64,000 nucleotides of DNA from a virus: the IMG/VR virus record IMGVR_UViG_3300022908_000001, positions 1 through 64,000 of that record; one strand, given 5' to 3'. Positions within the stretch are counted from its first letter, which is position 1. Each line of letters starts with the position of its first letter. The position numbers and the translations under genes were made by a program. The notes under the pieces were generated by a model. That model was given only the letters and a program-made list of their open reading frames with translations. It searched no databases and was not told the DNA's origin. This document shows positions 352 through 55,483 of this stretch, piece after piece.

Positions 352-1629
352 ATGAAATACCTGAAAATTCAAAATCAGGGTGAATTAGACATTCGCCTTG
401 TCGCCCTGATGGGTGGGACAACAAAAATTGACAACCCTCACAAAATCGGTCAATTTGGAACTGGACTCAAATACGCTATTAGCTGGTTAGTCCGAAATGA
501 AAACAAATTCAAATTATTTATTGGTGAAAATGAAGTAGTCTTTGAAAGCAGAGATGAAACTATCGCCGACAATTCATTTAAGGAAATTTACTGCAATGGT
601 AAATCGATGAGTATCACAACTCGCTATGGCTACCAATGGAAAGCATGGGAAGCTATAAGAGAATTGTGGTGCAATGCTAAAGACGAGGGTAGTGAACTAA
701 GGGAAGAAAGCGAAATAGCGGTTGGAGAACCCGAAACGACCACGTTTTTTATTGAAATTACGGAAGAAATACAAACATTAATTGACACATGGGATACCTA
801 TTTCTTAGCCGATCAGCCCTTGTTCGAGAATGGAAACTTCGGCATTTATAATAATCCTGAAAAACATCTAAAAATTTATAAAAATCGTGTTCTTATTCAC
901 ATAGATACTTATTATAAATCTAAATTCATTTATGATTTTAAAGAAGCCAACCTGAATGAATTAAGGCAGTTTATGGGATATGCCAAAAGTGATATAGCTA
1001 CAGCATTACTCCAATCGAATAAAGATGTTATCGATTTGGTGCTAACCGATTTTAAAAATCAAAACCAGAATGATAGGGTTGAATTTACGCTTGACTTCGG
1101 ATATACCAAATATGATGAGGATTACGTAAAATCCATATTTGAGGGCTATCTGTTTTTACATCCTGAAAGTGATAGGCGCAGTGGAAGCAAAAGTATACAG
1201 GTAAATAAATCTCTGTTTGAATTATTACAAAAAATCGGACTGCCAACTGAAACGGTTTATTCAGAGCGCGGACGTTATTACGGCGGTAGTGGGTATGGAA
1301 TTGACGATGATAGCGAAGTTATCTATTCTGAAATAAGCGATAACCAACTTCAAAAACGTATAGATATTATATCTGCAAAATATGATATTGAAATGGATTA
1401 TTCTATAGTGACACCCAAGGACAGTGATTTTGAAATTCTGATCAATAACAACGGCGAAATAATGTTTAGCTATGATTTGAAAAATCAATCCGATGCCGAC
1501 TTAGAAGCAATTGTATTGATAGCTATCTTTCAAACAAAACAAGGAAACATCTTTAAAGCCTTGAAAAGATTGATTAAATTTGCTCGGTCTAATAAGGCGT
1601 TTAAGAAAATATTTTTTGGCGAGATATAA
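352..1629 (+). CDS. GHKL (HATPase_c-like) ATP-binding protein, circularly permuted motif order; moron
   Basis: IQNQG and IGQFGTGLKYA near the N-terminus; N-box-like AIRELWCNAKDEG near residue 100. Lies opposite to the flanking genes with its own promoter and terminator. Confidence 0.75.
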   Translation: MKYLKIQNQGELDIRLVALMGGTTKIDNPHKIGQFGTGLKYAISWLVRNENKFKLFIGENEVVFESRDETIADNSFKEIYCNGKSMSITTRYGYQWKAWEAIRELWCNAKDEGSELREESEIAVGEPETTTFFIEITEEIQTLIDTWDTYFLADQPLFENGNFGIYNNPEKHLKIYKNRVLIHIDTYYKSKFIYDFKEANLNELRQFMGYAKSDIATALLQSNKDVIDLVLTDFKNQNQNDRVEFTLDFGYTKYDEDYVKSIFEGYLFLHPESDRRSGSKSIQVNKSLFELLQKIGLPTETVYSERGRYYGGSGYGIDDDSEVIYSEISDNQLQKRIDIISAKYDIEMDYSIVTPKDSDFEILINNNGEIMFSYDLKNQSDADLEAIVLIAIFQTKQGNIFKALKRLIKFARSNKAFKKIFFGEI

Positions 1630-1663
1630 GCCGTAGTGTTCCGCAAGCTCATTGCGGTTTTTT

Positions 1664-1696
1664 AGCTCACCCGACTTCGGTTAGGTGGGCTTTATT
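1664..1696. terminator. Intrinsic terminator hairpin between convergent genes
   Basis: AGCTCACCCGAC-TTCG-GTTAGGTGGGCT followed by TTATT. Confidence 0.7.
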
Positions 1697-2250: not shown

Positions 2251-2745
2251 TCACTTGCTATTCGATAAAGATAATGATTTTTTCTTTTCCCGTTGCCTTT
2301 TCCATTTTGCTTGCATTTTATCTATATTTCTATAATACCACTCCCGTTGATAAGCTAATTCCAATTCGTGGCAAGACTCACACCTGCACCCAAGCCTATA
2401 TGCATTGCGAGATGGATGGATATACTGGCCTATTCGACCCTTGTTTTGAGCATCTGAATGATTATCCTTGTGACTTCCCTTGAACAAGTGCAACGGGGAC
2501 ACGCATTTAGGATTGTCGCAAGTGTGGCATACCAGTTCCATTTTACTATTTAATTCGCCAATAAATAATACATAGCTTAATCTATGCGCGTACCAATTTT
2601 CTGTTTTCCCATTGCGAATAAATGATATTTGCCCGTAACCTTGTTTATTAGACGCCCCTGTCCATTCCAAGCAACCATTTTCACTATTATATTTTACAAA
2701 TCTTGTAAATCTTTCAAGAGGTGAAACTCTTTTTATACCACCCAT
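2251..2745 (-). CDS. HNH homing endonuclease (copy 1)
   Basis: GCLEWTG, AHRLSY, VCHTCDNPKCVSPLHLFKGSHKDNHSD; C-terminal GCRCESC zinc motif. Confidence 0.9.
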   Translation of the reverse strand: MGGIKRVSPLERFTRFVKYNSENGCLEWTGASNKQGYGQISFIRNGKTENWYAHRLSYVLFIGELNSKMELVCHTCDNPKCVSPLHLFKGSHKDNHSDAQNKGRIGQYIHPSRNAYRLGCRCESCHELELAYQREWYYRNIDKMQAKWKRQREKKKSLSLSNSK

Positions 2746-2845
2746 AAACTTAAAAATCCTGTTCCGGGTTCAGCCGATTGCGCCAGCCTCACCCAAAACA
2801 GGATTGAAATATCTTTAACTACGGAGCGCAATTCCGATTTGTTAA
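2746..2845 (-). ncRNA. Structured leader RNA upstream of HNH copy 1 (two hairpins, kissing loop)
   Basis: Hairpin CGGA-AUUGCGC-UCCG. 15-bp stem AAUCCUGUUUUGGGU/ACCCGGAACAGGAUU with GCGCAAU at its apex. Homologous to 18257-18355. Confidence 0.7.
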
Positions 2846-2860
2846 TACGAATATACGAAA

Positions 2861-17626: not shown

Positions 17627-17665
17627 AATTTAAAATTATATAATTACCATACAATAATAATCAAT

Positions 17666-18256
17666 TTATTGCAACCATTTCCATTTTCTTCTTTTTGCTA
17701 AGTCATCTATATGGCGCCTTTGTAAATTAGGGAATGCCTCACAAATTTGTTTTATCTTACTACCCGAATCATACATTCGTCTAATTTCCAAAACCTCATA
17801 CTCTTTAACGGTTCTATTTTTCTGCTCGGATATAGGCTTTTTAACAAATCCAGCATTGTATCTTGCGTCAAAACGCGCTTCGGTAGCAAGCCTTGTACAA
17901 TCTTGGCACCTACACCCATAACTATATGCGGTTTTACTTGGATGGGTAACTACCGGCATCCTTCCTTTGAGTTGAGCATCGTTCATGTTATCTTTCTGCG
18001 TACCCAAAAATAAGTGAAACGGATTTACGCAACTCGGATTGTCGCATTTATGGCAAATTTTCATACCTTCCGGCACTTCTCCTATGTAATGCATATAAGA
18101 ATACCTATGCGCAAAATACCCCCTTTCCCTTGTTTTAAATGAACCGTAGCCTTTTTTGTTTTTGCTTGCCTGCCATTCCCAACAACCGTTTTCTGGAGTG
18201 TATTTAACGAAACTAATAAACCTTTCAATATCAGATAATTTACTTCTCGGTGGCAT
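17666..18256 (-). CDS. HNH homing endonuclease (copy 2) with C-terminal HTH
   Basis: GCWEWQ, AHRYSY, ICHKCDNPSCVNPFHLFLGTQKDNMND, GCRCQDC; C-terminal VLEIRRMY helix-turn-helix; paralogous to 2251..2745. Confidence 0.9.
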   Translation of the reverse strand: MPPRSKLSDIERFISFVKYTPENGCWEWQASKNKKGYGSFKTRERGYFAHRYSYMHYIGEVPEGMKICHKCDNPSCVNPFHLFLGTQKDNMNDAQLKGRMPVVTHPSKTAYSYGCRCQDCTRLATEARFDARYNAGFVKKPISEQKNRTVKEYEVLEIRRMYDSGSKIKQICEAFPNLQRRHIDDLAKRRKWKWLQ

Positions 18257-18355
18257 AATACTAAAAAAGCCGATGAGCCGGGTTCAGTCTGCCAACATCC
18301 CCCGAATCAACGGCTATTAAATATCTTACTAACCGTGGCAGCGGTTATTTATCAA
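18257..18355 (-). ncRNA. Structured leader RNA upstream of HNH copy 2 (two hairpins, kissing loop)
   Basis: AACCG-CUGCCA-CGGUU hairpin. Long stem AGCCGUUGAUUCGGG/CCCGGCUCAUCGGCU with UGGCAG at its apex. TATATTTG promoter immediately upstream. Confidence 0.7.
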
Positions 18356-18366
18356 TACAAATATAA

Positions 18367-19290
18367 TTAAAACGAACGAGAAGTTTCGACATAATATGTC
18401 TCCACAGAGGATATTTCATTATACTCTGTGTCGTCGCATTGCAAATCAATAATAAGCCATCCGCCCTGCATTTTACGCCCATTGAATAGGGCGTCTAATC
18501 GCCTTTGAGTTGGGTCACTAATTCCGGCGAAGTTCGGGTCGGTAACACAGCCCAAAATATCCGCCCAAAGTTTATTGTCAATTAACTTAAAGTTATTTTT
18601 CTTTAACTGAGTCAGCATACCATTAGGAAATTGATTGCTATCCGGCGTGGTTATCGATGGCATATACCATTTTCCTACCGCATCTAATCTAAAGTTATAA
18701 AATATTTTCTCACGTTGATATTCAGCATTGACAATTATAGTTAGCTTTGATGAATATTGGTCACCATATAGGTTATTTTGAATAGGATTGGTGTTGTGAA
18801 CCCATAATTCACCATTCTTCCAGCTTATGAATGAGTCAATGAATTTAGCCATGACGTCGTTTGTGTACTCGTAATCGGCACACCATTTATTAGCCTTATC
18901 AAAGAAAGATACAACCTGAGCTGATTTTGGGCCGAGAAGTAAATCATAAAACTTCAAACCGTCAACCTGCAAATTTCCATCTGAAAAGAAAAATATCGAA
19001 CTGTTATTAAGCTGAGTTAGTGTTTCGGTGTACGTACCATTAGCTGTGCGATTTGTGCCAGCTTGTGTACCAGCATATATCTGAACACCGCCAGATGTCC
19101 TATTGGACACTGGGTATGTAAAAACGTATTGCCTACCGACTACCAATCCAAAATCAGTAAGGGATTGCGTAAAACCGGCATTACAAGCCGAGTGGATTAA
19201 GCTTCCATCGGAAATAACCCACCCTGTGTCTGTTGCGGCGACCGGGGCGTTTACATAGCCAGTTTGATTTTGTATGATTTGCAGGCTCAT
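18367..19290 (-). CDS. Tail muzzle/stabilisation protein, C-terminal part, with an N-terminal carbohydrate-binding-like domain
   Basis: SFFDKANKW...FISWKNGELWVHN...NNLYG...SKLTIIVN resembles the C-terminus of crAss-type muzzle proteins. Confidence 0.6.
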   Translation of the reverse strand: MSLQIIQNQTGYVNAPVAATDTGWVISDGSLIHSACNAGFTQSLTDFGLVVGRQYVFTYPVSNRTSGGVQIYAGTQAGTNRTANGTYTETLTQLNNSSIFFFSDGNLQVDGLKFYDLLLGPKSAQVVSFFDKANKWCADYEYTNDVMAKFIDSFISWKNGELWVHNTNPIQNNLYGDQYSSKLTIIVNAEYQREKIFYNFRLDAVGKWYMPSITTPDSNQFPNGMLTQLKKNNFKLIDNKLWADILGCVTDPNFAGISDPTQRRLDALFNGRKMQGGWLIIDLQCDDTEYNEISSVETYYVETSRSF

Positions 19291-24694: not shown

Positions 24695-25377
24695 TTAGAT
24701 ACAGCCTCCACCTGTGCCAATTGAGTTATACCATATTTAGCATAAGCCTGTAATAATTCTTCCCTTATACTGACACCAATCTTTTCAAGCATTTTATATA
24801 TGATTAAATTGTCAGCCGCTTCCGGCCAAGCCAAATCAATACTATCAACGTCATCGTAAGTCATAATATCCTCGTCGTCTGTGCTTGAATAAGTGAACGC
24901 TATCTTAGCCTCGGTTGGATAGACTAAGTAATAACAAAAATATGGCGTTATGGCTGCGGGGTAGAAATTTAGCGTTCCGGGGGCGTTAAATCTATAGTAT
25001 ACTATTTTTTTATTTACACTCGGCGCTCTTTGTGGCATTCTTGCTGCCGCCACCAATTCACTTTCTGATGCTTCTGTTATGGAAAATAAAATACTAGTGC
25101 CGTCTGTGTAGCCTATAGCCAAGGGACGGTTAACTATTTCAGGATCATTTCCGAGCGATTGAGAGCCGTCAACCATAGATGAACCAGCCTGTTGTCTAAC
25201 CCAAAAGTTGAGCAACTCCTTGACCATTTCGTTCTTGTCGTATAGGGGGCTAAGGTCGTTAAACAACTCATACTGAACCTCTGAAAGTTTGGTATTAAAA
25301 TAGTCAACGATGTCTGCTCCAGATTGATATTTTTGGATGTAATCAGCACAACGGTTCCAAAGAAAAAGTACCTTCAT
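24691..25377 (-). CDS. Tail ring/adaptor protein
   Basis: KYQSG...YFN...Q...FND and YLVYP...DLAWP...GVSIRE resemble crAss-type ring proteins. Confidence 0.6.
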   Translation of the reverse strand: MKVLFLWNRCADYIQKYQSGADIVDYFNTKLSEVQYELFNDLSPLYDKNEMVKELLNFWVRQQAGSSMVDGSQSLGNDPEIVNRPLAIGYTDGTSILFSITEASESELVAAARMPQRAPSVNKKIVYYRFNAPGTLNFYPAAITPYFCYYLVYPTEAKIAFTYSSTDDEDIMTYDDVDSIDLAWPEAADNLIIYKMLEKIGVSIREELLQAYAKYGITQLAQVEAVSK

Positions 25378-25407
25378 TGACTATACTTGCTTAACCTTGT
25401 AAATATA

Positions 25408-25440
25408 TAAAAAAAGTGATGCATTACACACCACTTTTTT
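25408..25440 (-). terminator. Probable intrinsic terminator
   Basis: AAAAAAGTG...CACTTTTTT inverted repeat with A/T tracts. Confidence 0.45.
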
Positions 25441-25486
25441 AACCAAAAATATGAAAATAATTCAGGAAACCACCCCTGAGATCAAG

Positions 25487-54845: not shown

Positions 54846-55176
54846 TCAATCCAATTGATACCACATAACACAATCAATACCTTGTTTCTTTAATGATTTA
54901 AAAGCGGACTCCATCACGGCGCTCCTTAAATCTGCCTGCCCACCGGTTTCTATATGAAGAAACCTGTATCCAGAAAAGTACCCTGACAACCTTTCGCTTA
55001 TGCCGACACCACACTTCTTAGAAAGCTCGTCAATGTCGCCTTTTCTCCACCCTTTGAGAGATATACAAACAGTATCTAAGTTGCAACTCCCGCGATCAAC
55101 CGTTGACTTTACTGATTCTGATTCTTTTTTAGCTATAATTATAGCTTCTGCGACTCTTTCAATTTCTCTCTTTTCC
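54846..55176 (-). CDS. Hypothetical protein
   Basis: DRGSCNLD motif, C-terminal YQLD. Confidence 0.55.
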
Positions 55177-55483
55177 ATAAAAACAACAAACCCCATCAAA
55201 TTCCAGCGGTCAGACTTTCATTCAACAGGGCGTTTTTAATTCCTTTTAATAACATTCTGACCAATGTTTTTGTTATTGTAAATATACGAATTTTATACAT
55301 TATAGCGCTCCTTAATTGCCAAAATAGTTTCAGGTGAGCATTTTACCTTTCCGCTATACCAAAGTCGGTCACGTTCCTTCCAGTATTCCTCAATTAGCCC
55401 CGGTATATATACCTTCGGCTTACTATACCTCTTCTTCTCAGGAACGTAATCTTCACGGTTTGTAGCCTTTATTAGTTTGGGCA

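What the first reader, a model, noticed from the sequence alone, without database searches (positions are those of the whole stretch)
18257..18365. Second copy of the HNH leader RNA with a different kissing-loop code
Seen on the minus strand, in order: TATATTTG promoter; AACCG[CUGCCA]CGGUU; AAGAUAUUU; a long stem with apex UGGCAG; CUGAACCCGG; a U-tract; AUG. The loop pair CUGCCA/UGGCAG replaces AUUGCGC/GCGCAAU of copy 1 while linker motifs and spacing are retained. Inference: orthogonal loop codes could keep co-resident elements independently regulated.
Basis: partly seen in the sequence, partly recalled or inferred. Interest (0 to 1): 0.8.

Follow-up and report, generated by a model that had tools for sequence, protein, structure and literature searches.

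The report
Phage leader RNA with kissing loops
This is one of three copies, in a crAss-like phage, of a widespread and apparently uncatalogued promoter-plus-RNA element whose two hairpins pair loop to loop just before a gene's start codon; it is not specific to HNH nuclease genes.

Summary
On the minus strand, 18365-18254 reads: TATATTTG box, hairpin H1 with loop CUGCCA, linker AAGAUAUUU, long hairpin H2 with apex UGGCAG, U6, then the ATG of an HNH_3 gene. Copy 1 (2855-2743) has the same layout with AUUGCGC/GCGCAAU.

I found a third copy (55286-55176, GGUCAGA/UCUGACC) before a non-HNH gene. I also found 62 unique relatives in IMG/VR phage contigs, carrying about 30 different loop pairs.

- **Loop-loop helix:** it covaries strongly. 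It is 100% paired with 5 of 8 pairs doubly changed in one subgroup, and 96.8% paired with 6 of 7 doubly changed in another.
- **Independent detection:** a covariance model built only from foreign sequences ranks copies 1 and 2 as the two best hits in the window.
- **Downstream genes:** they are diverse (HNH, DUF6291, HTH_36, methylases, CoiA, primase, helicase), so "HNH leader" is too narrow.
- **Mobility:** both HNH genes with their leaders are insertions relative to sibling phages.
- **Prior description:** no Rfam family matches, and four full-text searches aimed at such an element found no description.

My reading is a portable, promoter-proximal, terminator-like leader that limits and insulates expression of the gene behind it. 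Function is inferred, not shown. The "orthogonal codes" idea is neither supported nor excluded.

The parts
18358..18365 (-). TATATTTG, a match to the Bacteroidetes -7 promoter box TAnnTTTG; starts 2 nt after the stop codon of the upstream muzzle-like gene
   Evidence: 59 of 65 family members carry TATATTTG although my search pattern fixed only TATATT in most scans, and T/G are enriched at -22/-21. The consensus is quoted in a passage of PMC7366714.
18330..18347 (-). Hairpin H1, UAACCG[CUGCCA]CGGUUA; loop at 18336-18341
   Evidence: 6-bp stem in both the MFE and centroid structures.
18316..18329 (-). Single-stranded linker holding the conserved AAGAUAUUU (18319-18327)
   Evidence: The motif is shared with copy 1. 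Its presence in the retrieved relatives is required by my search pattern, so it is not independent evidence there.
18268..18315 (-). Long hairpin H2 with internal loops. The apex UGGCAG (18289-18294) is complementary to the H1 loop. CUGAACCCGG lies at 18278-18287.
   Evidence: The equivalent helices covary in relatives.
18263..18268 (-). U-tract (T6) directly after H2; together with H2 it looks like an intrinsic terminator
   Evidence: Termination itself was not tested.
17666..18256 (-). HNH_3 homing-endonuclease-like ORF, 196 aa; its ATG lies 6 nt after the U-tract
   Evidence: HNH_3 2.7e-11.
17627..18366 (-). The whole cassette (leader plus HNH gene). It is absent from sibling phages, where the muzzle-like gene is followed directly by the next gene.
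   Evidence: L027, L029, L030.
2743..2855 (-). Copy 1 of the leader: TATATTCG, H1 CGGA[AUUGCGC]UCCG (2822-2836), AAGAUAUUU (2807-2815), H2 (2756-2804) with apex GCGCAAU (2777-2783), U5, ATG at 2745
2251..2745 (-). HNH ORF of copy 1, 164 aa, 49% identical to the copy 2 HNH. With its leader it is an insertion between two genes that overlap (ATGA) in sibling G004.
55176..55286 (-). Third copy: TATATTTA, H1 AACAU[UGGUCAGA]AUGUU (55251-55268), variant linker AAAAGGAAUUAAAA, H2 with apex UCUGACC (55208-55214), U-tract, and ATG at 55178 of a 110-aa ORF with no Pfam hit
   Evidence: It scores weakly with the models (14.6 bits with R1, 13.5 bits with R2) and is accepted on its full architecture.

Best explanation
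The stretch is one copy of a compact, self-contained expression module found in phages that, by their promoter type, infect Bacteroidota.

The module has four parts:
1. A host-type promoter (-7 box TAnnTTTG).
2. An 85-95-nt leader RNA that starts at or just before hairpin H1.
3. A conserved A/U-rich linker.
4. A long hairpin H2 whose GC-rich base is followed by a U-tract and, within 0-14 nt, by the start codon.

The loop of H1 pairs with the apical loop of H2 through 6-9 Watson-Crick pairs (a kissing helix), locking the two hairpins into one fold.

I infer that H2 plus the U-tract acts as a promoter-proximal attenuator. It stops part of the transcription coming from the module's own promoter and from upstream. 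Because its base lies next to the AUG in an organism group without Shine-Dalgarno sequences, it also hinders ribosome loading. The gene behind it would therefore be kept low and insulated unless the phage allows read-through.

In this phage, two copies belong to free-standing HNH endonuclease cassettes that were inserted between tightly packed genes. The leader travels with the mobile gene.

**Shown:** the sequence architecture, the family, the covariation of all helices including the kissing helix, the sense-strand RNA polarity, the variety of downstream genes, and the insertion status.

**Inferred:** promoter activity, termination, translational occlusion, and what the kissing helix adds. 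It may give faster or firmer folding of the terminator, or a nuclease-resistant 5' end.
For: **Architecture.** It is seen in three window copies.

- Of 247 regex matches in all loci then held, 99 passed my filter (H2 of -12 kcal/mol or better, and a complement of at least 6 nt between the two segments) and 148 did not.
- The 99 reduce to 64 unique sequences, and to 62 after I dropped two that lack the architecture by eye (L218, L284).

**Kissing helix.**
- Subgroup A (22 sequences): 8 pairs, 100% of cells paired, 5 pairs changed on both sides.
- Subgroup B (18 sequences): 7 pairs, 96.8% paired, 6 changed on both sides.
- In subgroup B, H2 has 18 pairs, 15 of them changed on both sides.
- Whole-structure measures: in subgroup B no shuffle (0 of 500) reached any of the five. 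In subgroup A none reached three of them, 1 of 500 reached 'pairs changed on both sides', and 250 of 500 reached 'further pair types'. The slid controls fall to about 40-50% paired in both.

**Independent prediction.** RNAalifold, without my input, predicts H2 and the core of H1, with 19 of 28 pairs compensated.

**Polarity.** Many G-U pairs would be A-C on the other strand, for example 64-97 UG in 10 of 18 and 56-91 UG in 22 of 22. This points to sense-strand RNA.

**Coevolution.** In subgroup A the H2 stems are invariant (pi 0-0.11), while the H2 apical loop (0.25) and H1 (0.25-0.37) vary together.

**Kissing stability.** Duplexes have a median of -9.1 kcal/mol and 59% GC.

**Start codon position.** The ATG lies 0-14 nt after the U-tract in 55 of 59 unique instances that have an ORF, and directly abuts it in 13.

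**Promoter.** The box is TATATTTG in 59 of 65. The -7 consensus and the lack of Shine-Dalgarno sequences are from passages of PMC7366714.

**Insertion status.**

**Phage association.** The only prokaryote genome found to hold it is one Bacteroidia MAG, and 0 of 150 other genomes of that MAG's phylum match.
Against: There are no expression data.

Both HNH cassettes sit inside what were tightly coupled gene pairs. A strong constitutive terminator there should starve the downstream genes, so termination must be weak, conditional, or ignored by the polymerase that reads these operons.

I found no conserved alternative (antiterminator) pairing and no conserved 5'/3' closing helix (by inspection).

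The tool's simple terminator scan does not flag H2, because H2 has internal loops.

My filter required a complement of at least 6 nt, so 'all members have a kissing pair' is partly circular. The non-circular support is the covariation, the fixed position in the two loops, and the few strong-H2 matches that fail the filter. These are one type with a G-U inside a 7-bp kiss, and two unclear ones, L414 and L420.

The conserved linker is not explained by this model.
Confidence: 0.5

Rival explanations
1. The fold is mainly a 5'-end stabiliser or translation-control element rather than a terminator. The RNA 5' end is buried in H1 and clamped to H2, protecting the mRNA from 5'-end-dependent decay. 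The U/A-rich stretch after H2 is the ribosome landing site in a host without Shine-Dalgarno sequences.
For: In subgroup B the H1 helices start about 6 nt after the box, that is, at the predicted RNA 5' end. The ATG is always close to the U-tract. The cassettes are tolerated inside operons, which argues against strong termination.
Against: A GC-rich hairpin base followed at once by 5-7 U is the textbook signature of intrinsic termination. A hairpin ending 0-14 nt before the AUG should hinder initiation rather than help it. The conserved linker is not explained.
Confidence: 0.2
2. The loop pair is an address code for RNA-RNA contacts in trans. Terminated leader RNAs would act on nascent leaders carrying the same code, giving each cassette or phage a private feedback or exclusion channel.
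For: In subgroup A, three to four codes sit on an otherwise invariant H2 scaffold. Co-resident copies always differ in the four multi-copy genomes seen. Non-cognate H1/H2 windows reach a complement of 6 nt or more in only 52 of 1560 comparisons, mostly between the same or nested codes. The P4 precedent, in which CI RNA pairs with seqA and seqC of its own leader and causes termination, is from a passage of PMC4825925.
Against: Spacing between H1 and H2 is conserved, which fits an intramolecular fold. The same code recurs in different contigs before different genes. With about 30 codes, co-resident differences are expected by chance. In G006 the 8-mer code occurs only inside the element. H1 stems vary as much as the loops, so exchange of a whole H1-to-apex segment by recombination explains the pattern without selection for new codes.
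Confidence: 0.12
3. The element is a loading or pause site for antitermination. The linker (G)ATATTT(A) resembles the -7 box and could hold sigma-bound polymerase. That would let a phage factor, or the RNA itself (as with lambda Q at PR' or HK022 put RNA; both recalled, not from a call), make the polymerase read through H2 and later terminators.
For: Across members whose stems differ, the linker and the box are the most conserved parts, and the two share the hexamer ATATTT. The promoter-then-terminator order is typical of antitermination-controlled units. Tolerance inside operons fits read-through.
Against: My search patterns fixed both motifs, so their conservation in the retrieved set is partly imposed. 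The copies found without the pattern (55286-55176, L555, and the second copy in G010) have only loosely similar linkers. No candidate factor was identified.
Confidence: 0.1
4. It is a DNA-level signal, such as a homing or recombination site or a pair of protein operators, and the RNA fold is incidental.
For: The element marks the edges of insertions. In sibling G001, a different HNH-AP2 cassette with the same kind of leader sits at the same muzzle-gene junction in the opposite orientation.
Against: G-U pairs give strand-specific pairing. Compensatory changes occur in four helices. About 30 unrelated half-site sequences would need about 30 different proteins.
Confidence: 0.04

Closest known systems
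PeSLs, promoter-early stem-loop cassettes of T4-type phages (passages of PMC2839356; abstract of PMC4122927)
   Same: Both are conserved composite regulatory cassettes of about 100 bp, combining a strong host-type promoter with a stem-loop described as an effective terminator. Both lie in intergenic positions before accessory genes and mark insertions, deletions and replacements between sibling phages.
   Different: PeSLs use a sigma-70 -35/-10 promoter and one stem-loop, described there as stopping transcription from upstream. This element has a Bacteroidetes-type box, the hairpins lie downstream of the box, there are two hairpins joined by a covarying loop-loop helix, and only 1-3 copies per genome were seen. 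No sequence relationship was tested or expected.
Promoter-proximal intrinsic-terminator leaders (attenuators)
   Same: Both have a GC-based hairpin plus U-tract between a promoter and the start codon.
   Different: No competing antiterminator fold, leader peptide or ligand pocket was found. Instead, an upstream hairpin kisses the terminator's apical loop.
P4 CI RNA (passage of PMC4825925) and P1/P7 c4 RNA (recalled)
   Same: Complementary segments lie within one leader transcript, are linked to transcription termination, and differ between related phages through matched changes.
   Different: Those RNAs are processed and act in trans on two target sites in temperate elements. Here there is one pair, it lies within a fixed two-hairpin fold, it was seen in a crAss-like phage, and no processing or trans action is known.
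Loop-loop kissing complexes such as ColE1 RNA I/RNA II and HIV TAR-TAR* (recalled)
   Same: Hairpin loops of 6-8 nt are fully engaged in Watson-Crick pairs, and specificity is set by the loop sequence.
   Different: Those complexes are intermolecular. Here both loops lie in one RNA, about 45 nt apart.
HEARO / omega RNA (HNH-endonuclease-associated RNA, Rfam; name recalled)
   Same: Both are RNAs found next to an HNH-type gene.
   Different: No Rfam family reached threshold. The HNH here is a small HNH_3 homing-type protein, and the RNA also precedes many non-HNH genes.

Membership tests
Any Rfam 15 family | Score at or above the family's gathering threshold | tested here: not met
   There were 0 hits over the window at gathering thresholds. 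In E-value mode, the best hits around copy 2 and around L221 lie far below their thresholds, for example OxyS at 13.5 against 75 bits and sar at 19.9 against 43 bits.
Intrinsic terminator / attenuator leader | Stable hairpin with a GC-rich base followed at once by a U-tract | tested here: met
   The H2 segment alone folds at -21.3 kcal/mol (copy 2) and -29.3 kcal/mol (copy 1), followed by U6 and U5. The same holds in relatives, although there the T-run was required by my pattern.
Intrinsic terminator / attenuator leader | Lies between a promoter and the regulated ORF | tested here: inconclusive
   The box matches TAnnTTTG and the ATG follows within 0-14 nt in 55 of 59. Promoter activity itself was not measured.
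Intrinsic terminator / attenuator leader | Mutually exclusive antiterminator structure or another sensing device | tested here: not met
   None was seen in the MFE or centroid folds or by inspection of the alignments.
Intrinsic terminator / attenuator leader | RNA 3' ends at the U-tract in vivo or in vitro | not testable with these tools
   No RNA data are available for this stretch.
PeSL cassettes of T4-type phages | Composite promoter plus stem-loop in intergenic regions, at the edges of indels between sibling phages | tested here: met
   (both HNH cassettes are insertions). The definition is from passages of PMC2839356.
PeSL cassettes of T4-type phages | Sigma-70-like -35/-10 promoter with a single stem-loop, many copies in hyperplastic regions of T4-type genomes | tested here: not met
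   This element has a Bacteroidetes-type box and two hairpins with a kissing helix, and 1-3 copies were seen per genome in crAss-like and other non-T4 contigs.
P4 CI-type immunity RNA | Complementary segments within one leader, changed in a matched way between related phages | tested here: met
P4 CI-type immunity RNA | A processed stable small RNA acting in trans on two target sites (seqA, seqC) | tested here: inconclusive
   There is only one complementary pair per element, and no further copies of the 8-mer code in G006. Processing and trans action are not testable here.
Purine-riboswitch-like three-way junction with kissing loops | A closing helix P1 joining the 5' and 3' ends below two kissing hairpins | tested here: not met
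   A 5'/3' helix appears only in the fold of the third copy. It is not seen in copies 1 and 2 or in subgroups A and B.

The most novel reading that the evidence does not exclude
The variable loop pair is a specificity code. Short terminated leader RNAs would accumulate and pair, loop to loop, with nascent leaders carrying the same code. Each cassette or each phage lineage would then have its own private feedback or cross-exclusion channel during co-infection. This would be an RNA 'incompatibility group' system for phage gene cassettes. The turnover of codes on an otherwise invariant scaffold (subgroup A) would reflect selection for new, non-cross-reacting codes.
Probability: 0.12. Interest if true: 0.85.

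Novelty: new variant of a known kind. Interest (0 to 1): 0.62.

Why it matters
Very little is known about gene regulation in phages of Bacteroidota, including crAss-like phages. This element has three useful properties:

- **It is an annotation marker.** It is short and easy to recognise, and it marks transcription-unit starts and the boundaries of mobile gene cassettes.
- **It is a natural mutagenesis series.** The family offers about 30 natural compensatory variants of one loop-loop helix on a common scaffold, which is a ready-made data set for studying intramolecular kissing and its effect on a terminator.
- **It may be a portable part.** If the attenuator reading holds, it is a compact promoter-insulator module for Bacteroidota genetics. 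If the code reading holds, it would be a new form of RNA-based specificity among co-infecting phages.

Tried and rejected
- **Exact two-motif pattern.** AAGATATTT...CTGAACCCGG in IMG/VR gave 4 stretches, none with the architecture.
- **Retrieval through HNH relatives.** 0 of 19 loci, and then 1 of 62 loci (the sibling G003 copy), carry the leader. HNH similarity does not track the element.
- **Model R1.** Built from one tight subgroup, it was insensitive: copies 1 and 2 scored only 19 and 16 bits.
- **My loose Python descriptor.** It finds 13-33 hits per shuffled genome, so I used it only to locate candidates, not as evidence.
- **Further model hits in the window.** The hits at 1575-1665(+) and 25361-25453(-) lack the architecture by eye.
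- **The simple terminator scan.** It does not flag H2, which has internal loops.
- **RNAalifold's box-linker helix.** It rests on invariant columns that my pattern fixed, and it is not kept in copies found without the pattern.
- **Extra trans targets of the codes.** None were found above chance.
- **Cultured phages.** blastn of two leaders against INPHARED gave no match, and tblastn with a downstream ParB-like/methylase protein gave no useful lead.
- **Expression data.** No RNA holder was listed for the stretch, and I did not lay reads.
- **Literature.** Four full-text searches aimed at such an element and term look-ups in two 2026 preprints and one 2021 paper found no description of it. Three further searches were for comparison systems and the promoter consensus. 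The 2021 paper names a 109-bp palindromic Bacteroidetes candidate near phage genes (HMP_4078), whose sequence is in supplements I could not open. An overlap with that candidate therefore cannot be excluded.

Full report
**What is at the coordinates.**
Read on the minus strand, the 110-nt gap lies between a 307-aa gene and a 196-aa gene.
- The 307-aa gene (18367-19290) hits the Pfam crAss muzzle C-terminal domain at 2.7e-9.
- The 196-aa gene (17666-18256) hits HNH_3 at 2.7e-11.

- TATATTTG at 18365-18358.
- A 6-bp hairpin H1 with loop CUGCCA at 18347-18330.
- AAGAUAUUU at 18327-18319.
- A 48-nt hairpin H2 at 18315-18268, whose apex holds UGGCAG at 18294-18289.
- Six U.
- The ATG six bases later.

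Copy 1 lies at 2855-2743, before a 164-aa HNH gene that is 49% identical to the first. It has the same order and near-identical spacing, but the loop pair is AUUGCGC/GCGCAAU and the stems differ. Both stretches fold better than shuffles, with z -2.89 and -4.21. The window belongs to a 73,487-bp phage record with terminal repeats.

**It is a family, and larger than the finding implies.**
A sibling phage (G003) has an HNH gene preceded by the same layout with a third loop pair, GUUCAG/CUGAAC.

Searching by HNH similarity found nothing else: 0 of 19 loci, then 1 of 62.

- Of 247 regex matches in the loci held, 99 passed a filter requiring a strong H2 and a complement of at least 6 nt between the H1 and H2 segments.
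- These give 62 unique elements once two false ones are removed.
- With the three window copies there are 35 loop strings, a few of them nested, so about 30 distinct pairs.

A model built from one subgroup pointed to a third copy in the window at 55286-55176. It has the pair GGUCAGA/UCUGACC and a variant linker, and it precedes a 110-aa gene with no Pfam hit.

**The structure is supported by covariation.**
- Subgroup A (22 sequences): the scaffold is nearly invariant, yet the 8-bp loop-loop helix is paired in 100% of cells and 5 of 8 pairs changed on both sides.
- Subgroup B (18 sequences):
  - The 7-bp loop-loop helix is 96.8% paired, with 6 pairs changed on both sides.
  - H2 has 15 of 18 pairs compensated.
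  - Both H1 helices also covary.
  - None of 500 shuffles reached any observed measure.
  - Sliding the partners drops pairing to about 40-47%.
- In subgroup A, 0 of 500 shuffles reached three of the five whole-structure measures, 1 of 500 reached a fourth, and 250 of 500 reached 'further pair types'.
- RNAalifold independently predicts H2 and the H1 core.
- Frequent G-U pairs show that the folding strand is the sense strand of the downstream gene.
- A covariance model made only from subgroup B ranks copies 1 and 2 first and second in the window with filters off, at E 4.6e-4 and 7.4e-3. The third copy scores only 13.5 bits and rests on its architecture.

One caveat applies. My filter demanded a complement, so the statement that every member has one is partly circular. 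The covariation counts and the fixed position of the complement in the two loops are the independent evidence.

**Context.**
The box is TATATTTG in 59 of 65 members, and T/G are enriched 22/21 nt upstream. TAnnTTTG at -7 with TTTG near -33 is the consensus quoted for the Bacteroidetes primary sigma factor, and the same passages state that these bacteria lack Shine-Dalgarno sequences (PMC7366714).

The start codon follows the U-tract by 0-14 nt in 55 of 59 cases and abuts it in 13.

Downstream proteins are varied. Of 44 representatives:
- 7 hit HNH_3.
- 5 hit DUF6291.
- 4 hit HTH_36.
- Others hit DNA methylases, CoiA, AP2, Prim-Pol, DUF3987, helicase domains and T5orf172.

Distribution outside phage contigs is sparse.
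- In a scan of prokaryote genomes only 2 real elements appeared among 120 rows. Both are in one Bacteroidia MAG, on two contigs, with two different codes.
- 0 of 150 other genomes sampled from that MAG's phylum matched.
- No Rfam family matches.
- blastn found nothing in INPHARED.

**The HNH cassettes are insertions.**
In siblings L027, L029 and L030, the muzzle-like gene is followed at once by the homologue of the gene that here lies after the HNH gene.

In sibling G004, the two genes that flank copy 1's cassette overlap by ATGA.

In sibling G001, the muzzle junction holds a different HNH-AP2 gene with its own leader (GUGCGG/CCGCAC) in the opposite orientation. A second leader (CUUUCGC/GCGAAAG) precedes an unrelated 188-aa gene.

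So the leader moves with mobile genes, but it is also used elsewhere.

**How it most likely works.**
The order is promoter, structured leader, GC-based hairpin plus U-tract, then start codon. This fits a promoter-proximal attenuator that also occludes the start region. It would keep a potentially harmful nuclease or an early gene low and shield the cassette from outside transcription.

The kissing helix (median -9.1 kcal/mol) would lock H1 to the terminator apex. Whether it strengthens termination, protects the 5' end, or does something else is unknown.

Against a strong terminator: the cassettes sit inside former operons. Read-through must therefore occur, perhaps by phage-controlled antitermination or by a polymerase that ignores the signal.

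The conserved linker resembles the -7 box and may be a pause or protein site. However, my patterns imposed it on most retrieved members, and copies found without the pattern have looser linkers.

**The 'orthogonal code' idea.**
Co-resident copies always differ: G000 has 3, and G001, G010 and G011 have 2 each. Cross-complementarity between different codes is rare, at 52 of 1560 comparisons, mostly between the same or nested codes. In subgroup A the H2 apical loop is an island of change (pi 0.25) within invariant stems.

Three points weigh against reading this as selection for orthogonality:
- H1 stems vary as much as the loops.
- Recombination of an H1-to-apex segment would give the same picture.
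- Chance alone predicts different codes in most pairs.

No extra targets exist in G006. I rate the trans-code reading at about 0.12.

**Comparison with known systems.**
- The nearest functional analogue is the PeSL cassette of T4-type phages: promoter plus terminator stem-loop, at indel edges (passages of PMC2839356, abstract of PMC4122927). It has another promoter type, another order, and no kissing.
- P4 CI RNA shares leader-internal complementarity tied to termination (passage of PMC4825925).
- Neither is a family this element belongs to.
- I found no prior description. The supplements of PMC8040213, which lists a Bacteroidetes phage-associated palindromic candidate, could not be opened.

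Noticed in passing
window 55176-55286 (-): A third copy of the leader (GGUCAGA/UCUGACC, variant linker) lies before a 110-aa ORF with no Pfam hit, in a region of small genes. In its nested fold the A-rich 5' end pairs with the U-rich 3' end, which the other copies do not show.
   Followed up: partly
L026:3939-4571 (-), sibling phage G001: At the same muzzle-gene junction where this phage carries leader plus HNH_3, the sibling carries a different HNH-AP2 gene (174 aa) with the same kind of leader (GUGCGG/CCGCAC), in the opposite orientation. This junction looks like a hot spot for endonuclease cassettes.
   Followed up: partly
alignment A7, columns 2-7 with 49-54: The -7 box (AUAUUU) and the linker (AGAUAU) are complementary, and RNAalifold pairs them. 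This pairing could only form in transcripts that read in from upstream. Both motifs were fixed by my search pattern, so there is no covariation evidence.
   Followed up: no
H2 of copies 1 and 2 and relatives (e.g. L223, L308, L026, L351): A recurring internal loop, GGAUAGG ... CCUUGAA (in copy 2, GGAUGU ... ACUGAA), lies just below the apical loop. It could form tandem G-A pairs. It is absent from subgroup B.
   Followed up: no
G011 contigs C99 and C120 (L558, L559): One Bacteroidia MAG holds two short contigs, each with a leader carrying a different code (GUCGCAU, GUAGGAG). These are probably phage contigs binned with the host.
   Followed up: no
window 1641-1657 (+): A clean terminator-like hairpin, CCGCAAGCUCAUUGCGG followed by U6, lies on the plus strand, opposite to the gene direction of this part of the genome.
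   Followed up: no
G010:59464-59530 (+): A second, shorter leader in a 63.7-kb phage record has TATATTTG, H1 UCUAA[UUGCAG]UUAGA, a long A/U linker, H2 with CUGCAA, U5 and then ATG. This shows the family extends beyond the AAGAUAUUU linker used for retrieval.
   Followed up: partly
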